A DNA stretch of 64,000 bases from Alphaproteobacteria bacterium (GTDB taxonomy: Bacteria > Pseudomonadota > Alphaproteobacteria > Rhodospirillales > Rhodospirillaceae). The notes beneath the pieces are model-generated. The model was not told the DNA's origin and searched no databases. It saw only the letters and a list, made by a program, of their open reading frames with translations. The stretch lies in NCBI GenBank assembly GCA_003246625.1, contig QJZR01000014.1:7219-71218 (forward strand). The letters are read 5' to 3'. Shown piece after piece: positions 6,439-12,126 of the stretch; position 1 is the stretch's first letter; each line of letters begins with the position of its first letter. Both the position numbers and the translations under genes were made by a program.

Positions 6439-7005
6439 ATGCCCCCCTCCCTGGCGGTGACGGCGCGGCGCTTGGCGCGCTGGCCGCTGGTCCACTGGAT
6501 GGACCGGCGCCTGGGGTTCCCCGATCGCGGCGGGGAGCCCGACATCGGCTTTCTCGCCGACGATTCCCGCCATTTCGAGCTGTTCGCCAGTTGGCTACAC
6601 GCGCAATGGAGCGCGCCGCGCGGCGAATCCCTGGGTCAGCGGCGCCGGATGCTGCGCGCCCAAATGAACCTGGACCGCCTGCCGATCGCGCTGGTCGCCT
6701 ATTGGCAAGGCAGTCCCGCCGGGATCGTCAGCCTGCGTGCCGACGACCTGCACAGCCGTCCGGATCTGACTCCGTGGCTGTCCGCCCTTTACGTCGATCC
6801 CGCCTTGCGCGGACGCGGTATCGGCCGGGCGCTGGTGCGCGCCACCCTCGACCTTGCCGCCTGGATGGGATACCCCCGCGTCTTCCTGTTCACCACCGAC
6901 CGGCAAAGCCTGTACGCGGAACTCGGCTGGAACCTCCTGCCCAGGCTGCCCGGGGAGGCGAAGCTGTCGCCGCCGCCCGACGTCTTTTCCGCGGCAACCC
7001 GGTAA
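6439..7005 (+). CDS. GNAT family N-acetyltransferase
   Basis: PWLSALYVDPALRGRGIGRALV acetyl-CoA motif; GGAGA RBS before ATG 6439 (start could be later). Confidence 0.85.
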   Translation: MPPSLAVTARRLARWPLVHWMDRRLGFPDRGGEPDIGFLADDSRHFELFASWLHAQWSAPRGESLGQRRRMLRAQMNLDRLPIALVAYWQGSPAGIVSLRADDLHSRPDLTPWLSALYVDPALRGRGIGRALVRATLDLAAWMGYPRVFLFTTDRQSLYAELGWNLLPRLPGEAKLSPPPDVFSAATR

Positions 7006-7204
7006 AACCAGGCCGGGCTCTGCCCGGACCCGCAAAGGGCCTTGGGCCCTTTGATCCCGTTTGTTGGTTTTTCGCCGCGCAACGGCTATCCGCCATCAGG
7101 TTGCCACGTGACGGTTTGATCGCGCTGACGCGCAAAAACTGAAATTCATGGGATCAAAGGGGCTGGCCCCTTTGCGGGTCCGGGCGGCGCCCGGCCTGGT
7201 TTTT
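7004..7204. repeat. Dispersed palindromic repeat, copy 1 (REPIN/MITE-like)
   Basis: About 55-bp imperfect terminal inverted repeats AAAACCAGGCCGGGC..CCCGCAAAGGG..CCCTTTGATCCC around core TTTTCGCCGCG...CGCGCAAAAAC. Confidence 0.9.
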
Positions 7205-7394
7205 ACCGCCCGTGTTCCTCGGGGGAGAAGCGGCGGGCTTCCTCGGCCAGCATGATCGGCACGCCGTCGCGGATGGGATAGGCGATGCCCAGCGCGTCGT
7301 TGACCAGTTCCTGCGCCTCGCGGTCGTAGCGCAGGGGCAGTTTCGACATCGGGCAGACCAGCAGGGAGAGGAGCTTGGGATCGACTTCGGTCAT
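7203..7394 (-). CDS. Trm112/UPF0434 (YcaR) family protein
   Basis: [17 protein letters not shown]...[12 protein letters not shown]. Confidence 0.92.
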
Positions 7395-7410
7395 CGCGGG
7401 GCCTTTCGCA

Positions 7411-8091
7411 TCATTGCGGCGCGTCGCCGCCGCCGGCGACCGCCCCCATTTCCATCAGGGCGCACAGGGCGTTGAAGCGGTGTTCCAGGGTCAACGCCTC
7501 CAGCAGCGCCTGTTTTTCCGGCGTTTCGAAGGGCAGGGCCATCGACAGGGTGACCACCAGCGAGGGCACGGACAGGGCGTCCAGCGCCCTGAGGTCGAGG
7601 TCGAGGGAATGCGCCTCGACATAGCGTTTCAGGGCGGAGACGAGGCGGGCCTTCGGCGCGGAAACCGGGCCGCCCGAGGGGTTGGCGACGTCGTCGCGAT
7701 AGGGGGCGTAGTCCACCGCCAGACGGCGATAGCCCGCCACCGGTTCGGCCTCGGACCGCACGCGGAAACGGCAGATGCCCAGCAGCACCGCCAGCATTTG
7801 GTGGGCGTCGGTTTCGGAAAACTGGACGATGCGGCCGACGGTGCCCACCGAATAGAACGGCTGCGGCGCCTCGCCCACCGTGTCTTCGCCGCCCATCGGC
7901 TGGATCATGCCGAACAGGCGCCCCTGTCCCAGGGAATCTTGCACCAGGGACAGATAGCGCGGCTCGAACACGTTGAGCGGCAGACGGCCCCCCGGCAGCA
8001 GAATCACCCGCGGCAGGGGGAAGACCGGCAGAATCGCCGGAAGGTCGTCGAACCCGGTCGAGAAGGGATCCTTGGGCATCCTCGCCCCCAT
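7411..8091 (-). CDS. LON peptidase substrate-binding domain protein
   Basis: [24 protein letters not shown]; start may be ATG 8079. Confidence 0.9.
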
Positions 8092-8103
8092 GGAAAACCT
8101 TTT

Positions 8104-9021
8104 TTACACCATCAATATCATTTGCAACTGCCGCCGACCGGCCTTGCCCACCGGGTCGGCGGGGCCCAGGGCCTCGATGATCTTGAGCAGCCGCTTGCGC
8201 GCGCCGTCCTCGTTCCAGGAGCGGTCGCGGCGCACGATTTCCAGAAGCTCGTGAAGCGCCGTGGCGGCGTCGCCCCGCGCATAGGCGGACATCGCCAGGT
8301 CGAAGCGCGCCTGGTGGTCGTTCGGATCGGCGTCCAGGCGGGCCTTCGCCGCCTCGGGGTCGATGTTTCCGCCCTCGGCGGCCAGTTCCAGGGTGGCGGC
8401 GACGGCGGCGATTTCCGGGTGTTTCTTCAACTCGTCGGGAATCTGGCCGAGAATCTCGCGCGCCTTGTCCACCCGTCCGGCGGCCAGGTTGCAGCGCAGA
8501 AAACCGGCGATCGCCCCCGGGTTGCCCGGCGCCACCTGAAGAATCTGTTGATAGAGCCCGACCGCCTGGCCGATGTCGCCGTCGGCCAGGGCGGCGCGCG
8601 CGGCGTCCAGCATCGCGTCGATTTGCGCGTTCATCTGCGCGTTGCCGGTCAGGCGGTCGATGAAGGCGGCCAGTTCGCGTTCGCCCTGGGCGCCGGCGAT
8701 CATGTCGACCGGGCGGCCGCCCTTGATCGCGAAGATCGTGGGGACCGAACGCACCTGCATCTGCTGCGCCAGCTGCTGGTTTTCCTCGACGTTGACCTTG
8801 GCCAGTTTGACCCGGCCCTGCGCGCCGCGGACCAGGCGTTCGAGCAGCGGCGTCAACTGTTTGCACGGGCCGCACCAGGGCGCCCAGAAATCGACGATGA
8901 CCGGCACCTGCATCGAGGCGTCGATGACGTCCTGCATGAAGGTCTGGGTGGTGACGTCCTTGACGAGGTCCGGCGCGGCGTTGCCGCCCTGCGCGGCGCG
9001 ATCGCCGAAAATCAAATCCAT
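8104..9021 (-). CDS. ybbN: Thioredoxin-TPR co-chaperone YbbN/CnoX
   Basis: VIVDFWAPWCGPCKQL followed by TPR region ending ARKRLLKIIEALG...RRQLQMIL. Confidence 0.92.
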   Translation of the reverse strand: MDLIFGDRAAQGGNAAPDLVKDVTTQTFMQDVIDASMQVPVIVDFWAPWCGPCKQLTPLLERLVRGAQGRVKLAKVNVEENQQLAQQMQVRSVPTIFAIKGGRPVDMIAGAQGERELAAFIDRLTGNAQMNAQIDAMLDAARAALADGDIGQAVGLYQQILQVAPGNPGAIAGFLRCNLAAGRVDKAREILGQIPDELKKHPEIAAVAATLELAAEGGNIDPEAAKARLDADPNDHQARFDLAMSAYARGDAATALHELLEIVRRDRSWNEDGARKRLLKIIEALGPADPVGKAGRRQLQMILMV

Positions 9022-9079
9022 GACACGCTGATCCGCTTGAAGGTTCCTTGCCCGGTGGGGGGCTTTTTCGCTTCTCAAA

Positions 9080-9106
9080 ATGGGGCTTTCCGTCAGATCA
9101 GGCAAG
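9080..9106 (-). promoter_or_regulatory. Putative RpoH (sigma32) promoter
   Basis: Minus strand CTTGCC-N15-CCCCAT upstream of a chaperone/proteostasis operon. Confidence 0.5.
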
Positions 9107-9153
9107 CCTTAACGGGGATTTGAGCCCCTGTCGCGAGACCGCATTTTTTTTTG

Positions 9154-9181
9154 TTGCATTCCCCGTTATCCCCGATATAGT
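9154..9181 (+). promoter_or_regulatory. Putative sigma70 promoter of tRNA-Gly
   Basis: TTGCAT-N16-TATAGT. Confidence 0.55.
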
Positions 9182-9224
9182 CGCGGGCCTCGGCGGCACC
9201 CACGAGGTGCAAAGCCGGTGGAGC

Positions 9225-9299
9225 GCGGGCGTAGCTCAGGGGTAGAGCACAACCTTGCCAAGGTTGGGGTCGAGGGTTCGAATCCCTTCGCCCGCTCCA
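9225..9299 (+). tRNA. tRNA-Gly (GCC)
   Basis: GCGGGCG acceptor stem, CAACC-TT-GCC-AA-GGTTG anticodon arm, GAGGG-TTCGAAT-CCCTT T arm, encoded CCA. Confidence 0.98.
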
Positions 9300-9305
9300 A
9301 TTTCC

Positions 9306-9345
9306 AAAGGGTCGAACCGGTCTGGTTCGGCCCTTTTGCTTTTTT
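9306..9345 (+). terminator. Intrinsic terminator after tRNA-Gly
   Basis: AAAGGGTCGAACC..GGTTCGGCCCTTT hairpin followed by T-rich tract. Confidence 0.7.
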
Positions 9346-9389
9346 CCGGAAAGGCGGAGAATGCGCCCCGGATCAAGGAGGCTCCCCCG

Positions 9390-9722
9390 ATGAAGATTCC
9401 CGCCCTGCCGTTCACCCTGACCGACTGGTCGAAAGTGCCGGAAACCGTTCACCCCGGCGAAACCGGCCGGGCGCTTTGGCGCACCCTCGAGGTCGGCGAC
9501 ATCCGTATCCGTCAGGTCACCTACGAGCCGGGCTATCTGGCCGACCACTGGTGCGACCGCGGACACATTCTTTATGTGCTGGACGGCGAACTGGAAACCG
9601 AACTCAAGGACGGCCGCCGTTTCACCCTGAAGGCGGGGACGAGCTATCAGGTCTCGGACTTCGGCGACGCGGCGCATCGTTCCTCCACCCGTTGCGGCGC
9701 CACCCTGTTCATCGTCGATTGA
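9390..9722 (+). CDS. DHCW-motif cupin fold protein
   Basis: YEPGYLADHWCDRGHILYVLDGEL; AAGGAGG RBS. Confidence 0.88.
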   Translation: MKIPALPFTLTDWSKVPETVHPGETGRALWRTLEVGDIRIRQVTYEPGYLADHWCDRGHILYVLDGELETELKDGRRFTLKAGTSYQVSDFGDAAHRSSTRCGATLFIVD

Positions 9723-9753
9723 CCGGGACGGCGGATCGGGCCATTCTTTCGGC

Positions 9754-9789
9754 ATATGGATAATTGTACTTCCATATGTTTCGGAGATA
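9754..9789. promoter_or_regulatory. Putative LysR-type operator (copy A)
   Basis: ATATGGA-N10-TCCATATG-N6-AGATA, includes an inverted repeat and a T-N11-A box, directly before lysR ATG. Confidence 0.6.
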
Positions 9790-9793
9790 GCTC

Positions 9794-10711
9794 ATGGAAT
9801 TGCGCCACATCCGCTATTTTCTTGCCGTCGCCGAGGAGAAGAACTTCACCCGCGCCGCCGCCCGGGTCGGCATCGGCCAGCCGCCGCTCAGCCAGCAGAT
9901 CCGCGACCTGGAACGGGAAATCGGCGCGCCCTTGTTCCACCGCCTGCCGCATGGCGCGGAACTGACCGAGGCGGGGGAAAGTTTCCTGGAAAAGGCGCGC
10001 GGCATCGTCGTTCAGGCGGAGCAGGCGAAGGCTGCCGCGCAACGGGCGGCGCGCGGCGAAACCGGGCGGCTGCGCGTCGGGTTTTCCGGCTCCGCCGCGT
10101 TCAACCCGGCGGTCCCCGCGCCGATTCGCGATTTCCGCCGCGCCTATCCGGCGGTGGAGCTGACCCTGCTGGAGGCCAACACCCAGCAACTGGTCGGGAT
10201 GATGCGCGAGGACGAGGTGGACATCGCCTTCATCCGTCCGGCGCAGGCCGACCCCGAGGGGCTGCGGGTCTTCCGTTTTCCCGAGGAACCGATGCTGGCC
10301 GCCCTGCCCACCGGCCATCGCCTGGCGGGGGCGGTGTCGTTGGCCCTGGCCGATCTGGCGGAAGAACCCTTCATCCTTTATCCGCAGACCGTCGGCACCG
10401 GACTGTACGAGGAAGTGGTGGCGCAATGCCGCCGCGCCGGGTTCGAACCGCGCCTGGCCATCGGCTTCGAGCCCGAGCTGGTGTCGGAAACCCCGAAAAT
10501 GGCCTCGGTGATCAATCTGGTGGCGGCGGAAATGGGAATCTCGATCGTGCCACGGTCGCTGACCCAGATCACCGTGCCGGGGGTACGCTTCGTCCCCTTC
10601 GACGGCGAGGCGCCGATGGCCCGCCTGGGCTGCGCCATGCGGCGCGGGGAACGCGCCATCGCCGCCCGCAACTTCATGGCCTTGGCCAAAACCACGAAGG
10701 CGGCCGGTTAG
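9794..10711 (+). CDS. LysR family transcriptional regulator
   Basis: MELRHIRYFLAVAEEKNFTRAAARVGIGQPPLSQQIRDLE HTH plus substrate-binding domain. Confidence 0.96.
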   Translation: MELRHIRYFLAVAEEKNFTRAAARVGIGQPPLSQQIRDLEREIGAPLFHRLPHGAELTEAGESFLEKARGIVVQAEQAKAAAQRAARGETGRLRVGFSGSAAFNPAVPAPIRDFRRAYPAVELTLLEANTQQLVGMMREDEVDIAFIRPAQADPEGLRVFRFPEEPMLAALPTGHRLAGAVSLALADLAEEPFILYPQTVGTGLYEEVVAQCRRAGFEPRLAIGFEPELVSETPKMASVINLVAAEMGISIVPRSLTQITVPGVRFVPFDGEAPMARLGCAMRRGERAIAARNFMALAKTTKAAG

Positions 10712-10754
10712 GCCGCCTTCGGTACGGATTTGGGAGGGATAGGGGGGGGAACCT

Positions 10755-10806
10755 GCCGCGCCGTGGGGGAGAAGATCTTTCTCCCCTTGCGGGAGAACGG
10801 CGCGGC
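10755..10806. repeat. Nested inverted repeat containing TTCTCCCCTTGCGGGAGAA
   Basis: GCCGCGCCGT...ACGGCGCGGC outer stem with two alternative inner hairpins; inner motif resembles common alphaproteobacterial REP-like repeats. Confidence 0.5.
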
Positions 10807-10853
10807 GCGGGAGGTGTTGGGGTCTTGATAGGCCATTTCGACGCGTGCCGTCC

Positions 10854-10943
10854 TCAGTCCAGGTTGGTGCGGGCGCGGTGGGCGGTGGCGGACGCCAGAT
10901 AACCGGTGGCCTGCTGCGGATTGCTCTGCTTCTTGTCGCTCAT
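10854..10943 (-). CDS. Candidate 29-aa small protein MSDKKQSNPQQATGYLASATAHRARTNLD
   Basis: AAGGAG RBS 7 nt before ATG; promoter-like and operator-like sequences upstream; no family recognised. Confidence 0.45.
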   Translation of the reverse strand: MSDKKQSNPQQATGYLASATAHRARTNLD

Positions 10944-11019
10944 CACGATACTCCTTCTATTTGGTGACCCCGCCCGGGGGGGAGGCGGGGGAGCCTGTGC
11001 GGCTCTGTTCTGTGATGGA

Positions 11020-11085
11020 ATATCGGCGCCTTTCCGCGATGTGTCCAATATATGGAAATCGCTTTCTCGATATGAAAAACAGATA
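11020..11085 (-). promoter_or_regulatory. Putative promoter plus LysR-type operator (copy B)
   Basis: Minus strand TTGGAC-N17-CGATAT (11048-11020); plus strand ATATGGA-N10-TCGATATG-N6-AGATA at 11050-11085 matches copy A. Confidence 0.5.
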
Positions 11086-11089
11086 ACGG

Positions 11090-11277
11090 AAAGGCGGGCT
11101 CCGCCCGGACCCGCAAAGGGGCTTGGCCCCTTTGATCCCAGAACCTGTTTTCGCCGCGACAGCGGCAATCGACCGTTTCGTGGAAGCGATGGTTTTATAG
11201 CCCTGCGCGCAAAAACCCGGGAAAGGGGTCCAGGGGACCGAGTCCCCTGGTGGGTGTGGGCGAAGCCCACGGGTTTT
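11090..11277. repeat. Dispersed palindromic repeat, copy 2
   Basis: GGGCTCCGCCCGGACCCGCAAAGGGGCTTGGCCCCTTTGATCCC left arm, shared core, CCAGGGGAC-CGA-GTCCCCTGG..GGGCGAAGCCCACGGGTTTT right arm. Confidence 0.9.
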
Positions 11278-12126
11278 TCATCCCGTCAGCCGCGCCCAGT
11301 CGGCGCGCAGCCGGTCGGCGTCGGCGGGGGCGAGGCCGCAGGCGGCAAGGGCGTCGCGCACCGCGGCGACGAGGGCCTCGTTACCGGGCGCGGGGGAGCC
11401 GTCGGGCAGGTGAAGGTTGTTTTCGAAACCGATGCGCGCGTGCCCGCCAAGCAGGGCGGCGGCGCAGGCGCAGGCGGTTTCGAAGCGGCCGAAGGCGCAG
11501 GTCATCCAGTGTTCCGGCCTTGGCAGGCCGGGGGCGAGGAAGGGCAGCAGGTCGGCGGGCGCCGAGGTCTGGCCGACGGTATAGCGGCCGAGGACGAACA
11601 ACACCGGCGGGTCTTCCCACGGGATCAGGCCGCGGCCGCGCAGGCCGTCGAGGCGGGCGAGCTCCTCCGGCGAATAGAGGATGATCTGCGGCAGGATCGC
11701 CTCGCCCTTCATCCAGGTCAGGAATTCGGCGAAGGCGGGTTCGTCGGCGTCGGTGGGGGCGAATTCCCGCAGGGCGAGGGAAATCGCCTCGGGCCGGACC
11801 GCCTTGACCACCGCCATCTGCTCGGCCGGTGCGTAGAGTCCCAGGGACTCGGTGGTCATCTGGATCACCAGGCGGCTGCCCACCGTGCCCTTGACCGCGG
11901 CGATCGCGTCGGCGAAGGCGGCGGCGTCGAGAAGGTGGCCGCCCTGGGCGTTGCGCACGTGCAGGTGGATCATCGCCGCCCCGGCGGCCAGGCAGGCGGC
12001 GGCGGTTTCCGCCATTTCGCGCGGAGACAGAGGGATCGCCGGGTGGTCGGCCTTGGTGCGGCGGCCGCCGTTGGGGGCGACGCCGAGCGCGACGCGATGC
12101 GAAGCGGGAGTGGAAGAATCGCTCAT
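11278..12126 (-). CDS. Beta-keto acid cleavage enzyme (BKACE/DUF849, Kce family)
   Basis: VAPNGG, AGAAMIHLHVRN metal-binding HxH, HARIGFENN. Confidence 0.92.
   Translation of the reverse strand: MSDSSTPASHRVALGVAPNGGRRTKADHPAIPLSPREMAETAAACLAAGAAMIHLHVRNAQGGHLLDAAAFADAIAAVKGTVGSRLVIQMTTESLGLYAPAEQMAVVKAVRPEAISLALREFAPTDADEPAFAEFLTWMKGEAILPQIILYSPEELARLDGLRGRGLIPWEDPPVLFVLGRYTVGQTSAPADLLPFLAPGLPRPEHWMTCAFGRFETACACAAALLGGHARIGFENNLHLPDGSPAPGNEALVAAVRDALAACGLAPADADRLRADWARLTG

What the first reader, a model, noticed from the sequence alone, without database searches (positions are those of the whole stretch)
9754..11085. Duplicated LysR operator drives a 29-codon ORF / C-rich RNA located downstream of the regulator
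Seen: ATATGGA-N10-TC(C/G)ATATG-N6-AGATA occurs with identical spacing at 9754-9789 (before lysR) and at 11050-11085. Both contain ATAT-N7-AGAT (a T-N11-A box). Copy B overlaps a minus-strand TTGGAC-N17-CGATAT promoter leading to a leader with CTCCCCCGCCTCCCCCCC, an AAGGAG RBS, ORF 10943-10854, then hairpins and another C-rich tract. Established: LTTRs normally control a divergent gene, but none is divergent from this lysR. Inference: its target is this convergent small-protein or dual-function RNA, or a remnant of a deleted target gene.
Basis: partly seen in the sequence, partly recalled or inferred. Interest (0 to 1): 0.62.

Follow-up and report, generated by a model that had tools for sequence, protein, structure and literature searches.

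The report
ItcR-like regulator driving tiny-protein operon
A LysR regulator closely related to the itaconate sensors ItcR and RipR has a second copy of its usual promoter and operator behind its own gene, where it drives two tiny, previously undescribed proteins instead of a catabolic operon.

Summary
ATATGGA-N10-TC(C/G)ATATG-N6-AGATA occurs at 9754-9789 and 11050-11085 and nowhere else in the 2.69-Mb genome.

- **Regulator.** The lysR product (9794-10711) is 54% identical to Yersinia ItcR and 52% to Salmonella RipR.
- **Operators.** Both window sites align without gaps to the ItcR and RipR intergenic regions. Site B keeps the family's target promoter (TTGGAC-N18-GATATT). Site A, just before the lysR ATG, has lost the -35 element.
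- **Conservation.** lysR, operator and small ORFs recur in about 12 genomes or contigs with different neighbours. ORF1 is under purifying selection (pN 0.07, pS 0.60). In one relative lysR is a pseudogene and the operator plus ORF1 are deleted.
- **Rarity.** ORF1 has four true relatives among 1.84 billion representative proteins.

The "remnant of a deleted gene" reading is rejected. Most likely a carboxylate-responsive LTTR activates the small operon and represses itself. The function of the small proteins is unknown. A role for the conserved C-rich leader RNA remains open. No expression data could be obtained.

The parts
9390..9722 (+). DHCW-motif cupin gene (110 aa). It lies directly upstream of lysR on the same strand and may be co-transcribed with it.
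   Evidence: NCBIfam NF038084 DHCW_cupin, E=1.4e-48; Pfam Cupin_2. It is adjacent to lysR in every genome that has site A: G011, L104 and G009.
9754..9789 (.). Site A: the lysR-proximal operator copy (ATATGGA-N10-TCCATATG-N6-AGATA). It ends 4 nt before the lysR ATG, overlaps the lysR GGAG ribosome-binding site and lacks the divergent -35 element. Inferred role: autoregulatory site.
   Evidence: The blocks are conserved while the N10 spacer varies in G011, L104 and G009. It aligns gap-free with the ItcR/RipR intergenic regions.
9794..10711 (+). lysR: an ItcR/RipR-subfamily LysR-type regulator (305 aa).
   Evidence: Pfam HTH_1 + LysR_substrate. PDB 7W06 (ItcR) E=2.8e-88 and RipR regulatory domain E=4e-50. 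54% and 52% identity to the Yersinia and Salmonella proteins; the recognition-helix segment QPPLSQQI is invariant.
10695..10721 (.). Bidirectional terminator hairpin shared by lysR and the small operon. The stop codons of lysR (10709-10711) and ORF2 (10710-10708) lie in its loop.
   Evidence: Terminator scan: 11 pairs, 9 of them G-C, followed by a T run on the minus strand. Sequence.
10708..10836 (-). ORF2: a 42-aa basic, proline-rich small protein (MAYQDPNTSRAAPFSRKGRKIFSP...).
   Evidence: The frame and the M(A)YHDP...P..(K/T)GR motif are kept in 12 genomes or contigs, with pN/pS 0.27-0.85 in most pairs. Only 2 relatives were found among 5.8 billion proteins. No Pfam or NCBIfam hit.
10854..10943 (-). 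ORF1: a 29-aa small protein, MSDKKQSNPQQATGYLASATAHRARTNLD. It has a variable hydrophilic N-terminus and a conserved C-terminal motif G[YF]L[AG]SAT.HRA...LD followed by the stop.
   Evidence: For the last 17 codons, window vs G005 gives pN 0.07 and pS 0.60. Only 4 true relatives among 1.84 billion representatives. AlphaFold gives one helix over residues 13-28 of the 30-aa relative that was modelled, at low confidence, pLDDT 66.
10951..10958 (-). Shine-Dalgarno sequence AGAAGGAG, 7 nt before the ORF1 ATG.
   Evidence: An equivalent AGGAG/GGAG precedes ORF1 in all relatives read.
10944..11012 (-). Predicted 5' leader of about 69 nt with two hairpins. The second (10990-10968) presents a C7 loop on a G+C stem. 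The Shine-Dalgarno sequence is left unpaired.
   Evidence: Fold -28 kcal/mol, z = -2.1. L104 has one compensatory C-G to U-A change in the stem. C-rich looped leaders are also conserved in relatives, with 4 covarying pairs. The transcription start is predicted only.
11019..11048 (-). Sigma-70-type promoter of the small operon: -35 TTGGAC (11048-11043), 18-nt spacer, -10 GATATT (11024-11019).
   Evidence: Promoter scan. The hexamers and spacing are invariant in 10 promoters from 9 genomes. The Salmonella ripR-side target promoter reads TTGGAC-N18-CATAGT.
11050..11085 (.). Site B: the operator of the small-operon promoter, at about -38 to -73 from the predicted start and abutting the -35. Read in the direction of transcription it is TATCT-N6-CATATCGAGA-N11-ATATATTGGAC.
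   Evidence: The position weight matrix scores 53 bits here and 14 for the next best site in the genome. It aligns gap-free with the ItcR/RipR target promoters.
11094..11278 (.). Dispersed REP-like repeat that separates operator B from the stop of the BKACE gene. It is a boundary, not part of the module.
   Evidence: About 60 partial copies across the genome. It is absent in L104, where the operator directly follows the stop of a DUF1848 gene.

Best explanation
This is a rewired ItcR/RipR-type LysR circuit. In the characterised relatives one intergenic region does two jobs: it holds the regulator's operator and the promoter of a divergent target operon. For Yersinia ItcR that operon is ccl-ich-ict. 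In this genus of uncultured Rhodospirillaceae the region exists twice. Site A stays in front of lysR but has lost the divergent -35 element (GTCCAA has become TTTCGG). Bound LysR there would block its own ribosome-binding and promoter region, giving negative autoregulation (inferred). Site B, 339 bp past the lysR stop and facing it, keeps the full target promoter (TTGGAC-N18-GATATT), with the operator at about -38 to -73. That is the normal geometry for an LTTR tetramer contacting a recognition site near -65 and an activation site next to the -35. When the regulator binds its effector it would activate a short mRNA (inferred). The effector is probably a small carboxylic acid of the itaconate or isocitrate type, because Ser100, Glu127, Arg148 and Pro226 of the RipR pocket are kept. 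The mRNA has three parts: a structured C-rich leader; ORF1, a 29-aa protein whose conserved residues lie on one face of a predicted C-terminal helix, a likely protein-binding surface; and ORF2, a 42-aa basic proline-rich protein. It ends at a hairpin terminator shared with lysR. Shown here: the duplication, the homology of both sites to ItcR/RipR regions, the conservation of the module, and coding selection on ORF1. Inferred: binding, direction of regulation, the ligand, and the biochemical role of the small proteins. My best guess is that they are stress or metabolic modulators made in response to the organic-acid signal.
For: - **Motif.** It is unique to the two sites flanking lysR.
- **Regulator.** ItcR (PDB 7W06-08, itaconate complex, PMC9636186) is the best solved relative, E=2.8e-88 over the full length; the RipR regulatory domain gives E=4e-50. 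Identity is 54% and 52%, with an invariant recognition-helix segment QPPLSQQI.
- **Operator homology.** Sites A and B align without gaps to the intergenic regions of Yersinia ItcR, Salmonella RipR and homologues from an alphaproteobacterial MAG (L111), Thalassospira, Magnetospirillum and Acinetobacter. In Yersinia that region faces ccl-ich-ict.
- **Promoter.** Ten promoters from nine genomes keep TATC.A.A-N11-TATATTGG-N17/18-ATA.T with fixed spacing.
- **Module conservation.** It recurs with different neighbours: BKACE, an MCP, DUF1848, tldD.
- **Co-decay.** In G009 lysR has lost its HTH region through a frameshifting deletion, and operator B plus ORF1 are deleted. G004 has neither an orthologue nor ORF1.
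- **Regulon size.** The position weight matrix finds only site B in the genome.
- **ORF1 is coding.** pN/pS is about 0.1-0.5 in most pairs, each copy read has a Shine-Dalgarno-like sequence upstream, the stop position is fixed, and tandem paralogues exist.
- **ORF2.** The frame is kept in 12 genomes; it is translationally coupled (TGATG) in three.
- **Ligand pocket.** RipR pocket residues from PMC9637912 were mapped on the alignment.
Against: - There is no direct evidence of binding, transcription or translation.
- I could not obtain a published footprint for ItcR or RipR, so the operator is defined by phylogenetic footprinting only.
- Site A scores below 12 bits with the site-B matrix, and it is not recognisable before lysR in G005 or in L017, where lysR follows a tandem paralogue. 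Autoregulation through site A is therefore the weakest step.
- The genome lacks an Ich homologue and has only a 33%-identical CitE-like gene, so the ligand need not be itaconate. Five of nine pocket positions differ.
- ORF2 evolves fast (pN/pS up to 1.4 in one close pair), and its region is strongly structured as RNA (z = -3.9).
Confidence: 0.7

Rival explanations
1. Dual-function or purely RNA output. The regulated product that matters is the C-rich structured leader (and/or the structured 3' part), acting as an anti-Shine-Dalgarno regulatory RNA in trans or as a cis-regulatory element. The small ORFs would be secondary.
For: C5-C7 runs displayed in hairpin loops or unpaired stretches are present in all P1 leaders read, although their sequences differ. 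The subgroup consensus has a 13-bp closing stem, an inner hairpin with loop UAUCCCCCA and 4 covarying pairs. There is one compensatory change in the window-type hairpin. The 3' region folds with z = -3.9.
Against: ORF1 shows clear protein-level selection, and it is the one element present at every intact promoter set. Synonymous changes in ORF2 break the window-type hairpin in L104 without compensation. There is no Rfam match, including to C-rich sRNA families. In the predicted fold the leader leaves the Shine-Dalgarno sequence free. A leader role would add to the protein output rather than replace it.
Confidence: 0.15
2. Evolutionary debris. Site B and ORF1 are the leftover promoter and 5' stub of a deleted target gene and no longer have a function.
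For: The promoter/operator is clearly derived from the ancestral divergent region. The ORFs are very short and have no known family.
Against: ORF1 is conserved with a fixed stop and pN much lower than pS across genomes whose synonymous sites are about 60% diverged. It is duplicated in tandem in several genomes. The operator, -35, -10 and their spacing are invariant. There is no similarity to Ccl and none apparent to the start of the MFS gene at L020 (read by eye). Where the regulator is broken, the unit has been lost.
Confidence: 0.03
3. The repeated motif is bound by a different transcription factor, or is only promoter and UP-element sequence, and the adjacent LysR regulates something else.
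For: Binding was not tested. Part of the conserved block (TATATTGGAC) is the -35 region itself. Site A matches the cross-genome site-B matrix poorly.
Against: The same box sits next to lysR homologues from Gamma- and Alphaproteobacteria whatever the target gene is: ccl, an MFS transporter, HlyD/FUSC. The module always carries lysR (all loci read). The lysR pseudogene coincides with loss of operator B.
Confidence: 0.07
4. ORF1 is a regulatory leader peptide whose translation controls expression of ORF2 or termination, rather than a functional protein.
For: ORF1 is very short and lies upstream of ORF2. The stop and start overlap (TGATG) in three genomes.
Against: ORF1 occurs without ORF2 in G007, at the P2 units of L106, G008 and G003, and in tandem copies. 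ORF2 occurs without ORF1 at P1 of G003 and G008. The conserved part is a C-terminal helix face, not a run of regulatory codons.
Confidence: 0.05

Closest known systems
ItcR (Yersinia) with its divergent ccl-ich-ict promoter region, the itaconate-inducible LTTR system
   Same: The regulator is 54% identical over its full length, with an invariant recognition-helix segment QPPLSQQI. The operator/promoter block GTCCAATATATG-N13-TTC.AT..-TTTTGGAGAT aligns gap-free with sites A and B. The target -35 is TTGGAY in both.
   Different: In Yersinia one intergenic region serves both the regulator and a divergent itaconate-catabolic operon. Here the region is duplicated, the target copy lies downstream of and convergent with lysR, and the target is two tiny proteins. 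No Ich homologue was found in the genome. The ligand is untested.
RipR (Salmonella) with the SPI-13 ripABC cluster
   Same: 52% identity. The regulatory domain matches at E=4e-50. The target promoter TTGGAC-N18-CATAGT compares with TTGGAC-N18-GATATT here. Pocket residues Ser100, Glu127, Arg148 and Pro226 are kept (PMC9637912).
   Different: The target genes and their arrangement differ. Five of nine reported pocket positions differ. The window subgroup has an 8-residue insertion in the regulatory domain.
Classical LTTR divergent architecture (for example BenM/CatM, CbnR)
   Same: HTH_1 + LysR_substrate domains. The operator extends from about -73 to the -35. Negative autoregulation by a site at the regulator's own start is expected (review PMC11495319).
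   Different: There is no divergent target. The two functions of the single bidirectional region are split between two copies 1.3 kb apart, one on each side of the regulator gene.
C-rich anti-Shine-Dalgarno sRNAs linked to small ORFs (CcsR/'cuckoo' RNAs downstream of DUF1127 genes in Rhodobacter; RsaE/RoxS). Recalled from memory as a lead only.
   Same: C-rich loops on stable stems sit in a transcript that also encodes a small protein.
   Different: There is no Rfam match. The C-rich hairpins lie in the 5' leader, not in 3' repeats. The ORFs are unrelated to DUF1127. Trans action is untested.

Membership tests
LysR-type transcriptional regulators (LTTR) | N-terminal HTH_1 domain plus C-terminal LysR_substrate domain, about 300 aa | tested here: met
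   PF00126 E=7e-23 and PF03466 E=4.5e-41.
ItcR/RipR subfamily of LTTRs | Close full-length sequence similarity to the characterised members | tested here: met
   PDB 7W06 (ItcR) E=2.8e-88, residues 1-295; RipR regulatory domain E=4e-50. 54% and 52% identity. No tree was built, so strict orthology is not shown.
ItcR/RipR subfamily of LTTRs | Family-typical operator/promoter box next to the regulator gene | tested here: met
   Gap-free alignment of sites A and B with the Yersinia, Salmonella, L111 MAG, Thalassospira, Magnetospirillum and Acinetobacter regions. The box is defined here by comparison, not by a published footprint.
ItcR/RipR subfamily of LTTRs | Divergently transcribed itaconate-degradation operon (ccl/ich/ict) as the target | tested here: not met
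   The upstream gene is a co-oriented cupin and the target is a convergent small-ORF operon. There is no Ich homologue and only a 33%-identical CitE-like gene elsewhere in the genome.
ItcR/RipR subfamily of LTTRs | Itaconate (ItcR) or isocitrate (RipR) as the effector | tested here: inconclusive
   Four of nine RipR pocket residues are identical, including the carboxylate-binding Arg148 and Ser100; five differ (PMC9637912; alignment). Binding itself cannot be tested with these tools.
Known small-protein or RNA families | A match of ORF1 or ORF2 to a Pfam or NCBIfam model, or of the transcript to an Rfam model | tested here: not met
   No family for either ORF. No Rfam hit in 6500-12000 apart from the tRNA.
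RiPP precursor peptides | Conserved adjacency to modifying or processing enzymes | tested here: not met
   The only constant neighbour is lysR. The flanking genes vary: BKACE, MCP, DUF1848, tldD.

The most novel reading that the evidence does not exclude
An organic-acid-sensing ItcR-like regulator controls a dedicated dual-function transcript. Its conserved C-loop leader would act as an anti-Shine-Dalgarno riboregulator, in cis or in trans. Its two lineage-specific microproteins would bind and modulate a metabolic or stress target; ORF1 would do so through one face of its C-terminal helix. That would be a metabolite-to-microprotein/sRNA signalling module born by duplication of an LTTR bidirectional promoter.
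Probability: 0.15. Interest if true: 0.72.

Novelty: new variant of a known kind. Interest (0 to 1): 0.5.

Why it matters
Three points make this worth following.

- **Promoter evolution.** It shows how a textbook LysR bidirectional promoter can be split by duplication into an autoregulatory copy and a relocated target copy.
- **Testable microproteins.** It links two unannotated microprotein families, almost absent from databases of billions of proteins, to a regulator subfamily with characterised members: the effector and the divergent target operon are known for ItcR and RipR, and the shared promoter box was derived here by comparison. Microproteins usually lack any functional handle. Here the likely inducing signal (itaconate-like carboxylates) and the promoter are predictable, so reporter, EMSA and pull-down experiments can be designed directly.
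- **Annotation.** The ORFs are at or below gene-caller length limits, which suggests that LTTR "orphans" without divergent targets may regulate overlooked small genes.

Tried and rejected
- **ORF1 as the 5' stub of the ancestral target Ccl.** hhalign of the ORF1 profile against Yersinia Ccl gave probability 0.25% with the match in the wrong place. Rejected.
- **Known RNA family.** An Rfam scan at E<=1 over 6500-12000 found only the tRNA.
- **Known protein family for the ORFs.** Pfam and NCBIfam gave none.
- **Wider regulon.** A position weight matrix of 10 operators scanned over the genome found only site B.
- **Wide distribution of ORF1.** It was found in this genus only: 5 of the 6 genus genomes in a 401-genome sample of the order, and about 10 of 12 genus genomes counting those read individually. 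There are 4 true hits among 1.84 billion representatives; the other hits were repeats. ORF2 had 2 hits among 5.8 billion proteins.
- **One consensus leader structure for all ten leaders.** The alignment failed and gave 0 pairs. Only the five-member subgroup gave a structure.
- **Published ItcR or RipR operator.** It is not in the RipR papers held, and the ItcR biosensor paper PMC6345495 is not held.
- **RiPP reading.** Rejected for lack of any conserved enzyme neighbour.
- **AlphaFold of the 30-aa ORF1 relative (L017).** Only a low-confidence single helix, so no fold search was attempted.
Full report
**1. Observation**

The sequence at 9754-9789 is ATATGGATAATTGTACTTCCATATGTTTCGGAGATA. At 11050-11085 it is ATATGGAAATCGCTTTCTCGATATGAAAAACAGATA. 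The two share 21 of 36 positions, in blocks with identical spacing.

In the whole assembly (2,685,285 bp, 20 contigs, 67% G+C) the full pattern, the 24-bp core and the looser TATGGA-N10-TC.ATA occur only here. By simple Hamming distance, site A is among the roughly ten best matches to site B in 5.4 million positions. The duplication is therefore real and not a chance effect of composition.

The other features were checked as follows.
- lysR is 9794-10711 (HTH_1 + LysR_substrate).
- The minus-strand promoter is TTGGAC (11048-11043), an 18-nt spacer and GATATT (11024-11019).
- Upstream of lysR lie tRNA-Gly (9225-9299) and a co-oriented DHCW-cupin gene (9390-9722). Nothing is divergent from lysR.
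- The region 11094-11278, between site B and the BKACE gene, is a dispersed REP-like repeat with about 60 partial copies. It forms the outer boundary of the unit.

**2.

The "hairpins and C-rich tract" after ORF1 are a second ORF of 42 aa at 10836-10708. It is followed by a strong hairpin terminator (10721-10695), whose loop holds the stop codons of both ORF2 and the convergent lysR.

**3. The module is conserved**

A six-frame search with ORF1, followed by reading of the loci, found the same arrangement in many places. In each, lysR is convergent with a unit made of operator, promoter, C-rich leader and small ORF(s).

| Genome or contig | Notes |
|---|---|
| G011 | LysR 88% identical |
| L104 (JGI metagenome contig) | Operator follows a DUF1848 gene |
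| G005 | Neighbours are tldD and an MCP gene |
| G002 | |
| G006 = L017 | LysR 63% identical |
| G001 / L105 | |
| G007 | The ORF1 homologue is 71 aa with the same C-terminus |
| G010 | |
| G008 | |
| G003 | |
| L106 (Logan contig) | |

The flanking genes differ between these loci (BKACE, MCP, DUF1848, tldD). The only constant partner of the small ORFs is lysR.

Some genomes carry two operator/promoter units (P1 and P2), tandem ORF1 copies and tandem lysR paralogues.

An alignment of ten promoters shows invariant TATC.A.A-N11-TATATTGG(-35)-N17/18-ATA.T.

In G009 lysR has a frameshifting deletion that removes the HTH region. Operator B and ORF1 are deleted there as well, while site A and an ORF2 remnant persist. 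G004 has neither an orthologue (best LysR match 51%) nor ORF1. This joint loss supports a functional link between lysR and the small operon.

**4. The ORFs are coding**

*ORF1.* The homologues (21-71 aa) have variable hydrophilic N-termini and a conserved C-terminus, G[YF]L[AG]SAT.HRA...LD followed by the stop.
- Over the last 17 codons, window vs G005 gives pS 0.60 and pN 0.07. pN is below pS in all 28 pairs and well below it in most.
- AlphaFold gives one helix over residues 13-28 of the 30-aa L017 relative that was modelled, at low confidence (pLDDT 66). In the window's 29-aa ORF1 the conserved residues L16, S18/A19/T20, R23/A24 and L28/D29 would fall largely on one face of the corresponding helix. 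This placement is my inference.

*ORF2.* It keeps its frame and the M(A)YHDP...P..(K/T)GR motif in 12 genomes.
- pN/pS is 0.27-0.85 in most pairs, and 1.4 in one close pair.
- In three genomes its ATG overlaps the ORF1 stop (TGATG), which indicates translational coupling.
- In L104, synonymous changes break the window-type RNA hairpin inside ORF2 without compensation. The constraint there therefore acts on the protein rather than on the RNA.

*Rarity.* Both families are extremely rare.
- ORF1 has 4 true relatives among 1.84 billion representative proteins.
- ORF2 has 2 relatives among 5.8 billion proteins.
- ORF1 was found only in this genus: in 5 of the 6 genus genomes included in a 401-genome sample of the order, and in about 10 of the genus's 12 genomes when those read individually are counted.
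- Neither has a Pfam or NCBIfam model.

**5. Identity of the regulator and the operator**

The best solved relative of the LysR is ItcR, the itaconate-binding LTTR (PDB 7W06-08; PMC9636186). It matches over the full length at E=2.8e-88. Salmonella RipR follows. Identity to the Yersinia and Salmonella proteins is 54% and 52%, and the recognition-helix segment QPPLSQQI is invariant.

I then read the regions upstream of homologues that have classical divergent targets:
- Yersinia ItcR, divergent from HpcH_HpaI lyase, MaoC hydratase and CoA-transferase, that is ccl-ich-ict;
- Salmonella RipR;
- an alphaproteobacterial MAG, L111;
- Thalassospira;
- Magnetospirillum and Acinetobacter, both divergent from MFS transporters;
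- Bradyrhizobium, divergent from HlyD/FUSC efflux genes.

All of them carry GTCCAATATATG-N13-TTC.AT..-TTTTGGAGAT just before the lysR ATG. Both window sites align to this region without a single gap.

The reverse complement of GTCCAA is TTGGAC, the -35 of the divergent target promoter. In Salmonella that promoter reads TTGGAC-N18-CATAGT, and in the window TTGGAC-N18-GATATT.

Site B is therefore a relocated copy of the family's target promoter with its operator. Site A is the copy that stayed at lysR. It kept the regulator-proximal blocks, including the GGAGAT ribosome-binding region, but lost the -35 (GTCCAA has become TTTCGG).

A position weight matrix of the ten genus operators finds only site B in the genome, at 53 bits against 14 for the next best site. 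The regulator therefore looks dedicated to this one promoter.

**6. Mechanism (inferred)**

With a predicted start near 11012, site B spans about -38 to -73. This is the usual range of an LTTR recognition site plus an activation site next to the -35 (general LTTR model, review PMC11495319).

I infer ligand-dependent activation of the small operon, and repression of lysR through site A, which overlaps its ribosome-binding site.

Site A is present wherever the cupin gene precedes lysR (the window, G011, L104, G009). It is not recognisable in G005 or L017. Autoregulation is therefore the least secure step.

On the ligand:
- Of the RipR pocket residues listed in PMC9637912, Ser100, Glu127, Arg148 and Pro226 are kept and five differ. 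A small carboxylate is likely, but itaconate itself is uncertain.
- The genome shows no Ich homologue and only a distant CitE-like gene.

**7. The RNA question**

The window leader folds into two hairpins, the second with a C7 loop. The Shine-Dalgarno sequence stays free.

Every P1 leader read contains C5+ runs. In a five-genome subgroup a 13-bp closing stem encloses a hairpin with the loop UAUCCCCCA, with 4 covarying pairs.

This is real conservation of a structured C-rich leader, and it keeps a cis- or trans-regulatory RNA role open. It does not replace the coding evidence.

**8. Comparison and novelty**

The circuit works like ItcR/RipR, and by sequence and operator it belongs to that subfamily. 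It fails the defining feature of a divergent itaconate-catabolic target.

The new elements are:
- the split, duplicated operator with a convergent target;
- two undescribed microprotein families as the apparent sole regulon;
- a conserved C-rich leader.

I rate it a new variant of a known kind, of moderate interest. Binding, transcription and translation all remain untested.

Noticed in passing
window 10695-10721: lysR (+) and ORF2 (-) overlap by 4 nt. Both stop codons sit in the loop of one palindromic terminator hairpin. Because the arms are palindromic, both proteins end with K-A-A encoded by AAGGCGGCC. The same holds in G011 and L104. Leaky termination would give antisense overlap between the regulator and its target.
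   Followed up: partly
window 11094-11278 and 7000-7208: A REP-like dispersed repeat (core CCGCAAAGGGGCTTGGCCCCTTTG) has about 60 partial copies in the genome. One copy lies between operator B and the BKACE stop. It is also present in G011 and G010 but absent from L104.
   Followed up: partly
window 10457-10480 (LysR residues 222-229): There is an 8-residue insertion, AIGFEPEL, in the regulatory domain. It looks like a tandem duplication of GFEPxL and is found only in the window, G011 and L104 subgroup. It lies next to the conserved pocket proline.
   Followed up: no
L015 (G002) 271-540; L017 3920-4110; L102 1500-1760: A second operator/promoter (P2) lies between the ORF2 terminator and the lysR end. 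In G002 it drives a 44-aa ORF3 (MRDKTSRSDFRPAAWRTYRSAVPAVDPNSLLGCETRKRARSSFD). In G001 and L017 it drives a transcript of about 130-200 nt with no clear ORF, ending in a terminator. That transcript could be an sRNA.
   Followed up: no
L108 (G009) 1589-1650 and 2300-2470: This is a decayed copy of the module. lysR is frameshifted by a deletion of about 128 nt that removes the HTH region. Operator B and ORF1 are deleted, with an unrelated coding region that I did not identify now fused upstream of ORF2. Site A and the cupin gene are intact.
   Followed up: partly
L010 (G008) 1460-1700; L107 (G003) 1280-1515; L106 2137-2559: Tandem ORF1 paralogues (27-33 aa) sit in one transcription unit, each with its own ribosome-binding site. 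L106 has a minimal 21-aa version (MTDILELLASSIAHRAETTLD).
   Followed up: partly
window 9225-9722: The order tRNA-Gly, DHCW-cupin gene, lysR is conserved in G011. The cupin-lysR pair is also conserved in L104 and G009. Site A occurs only where the cupin gene precedes lysR, so the cupin gene may belong to the same transcription unit or regulon.
   Followed up: no
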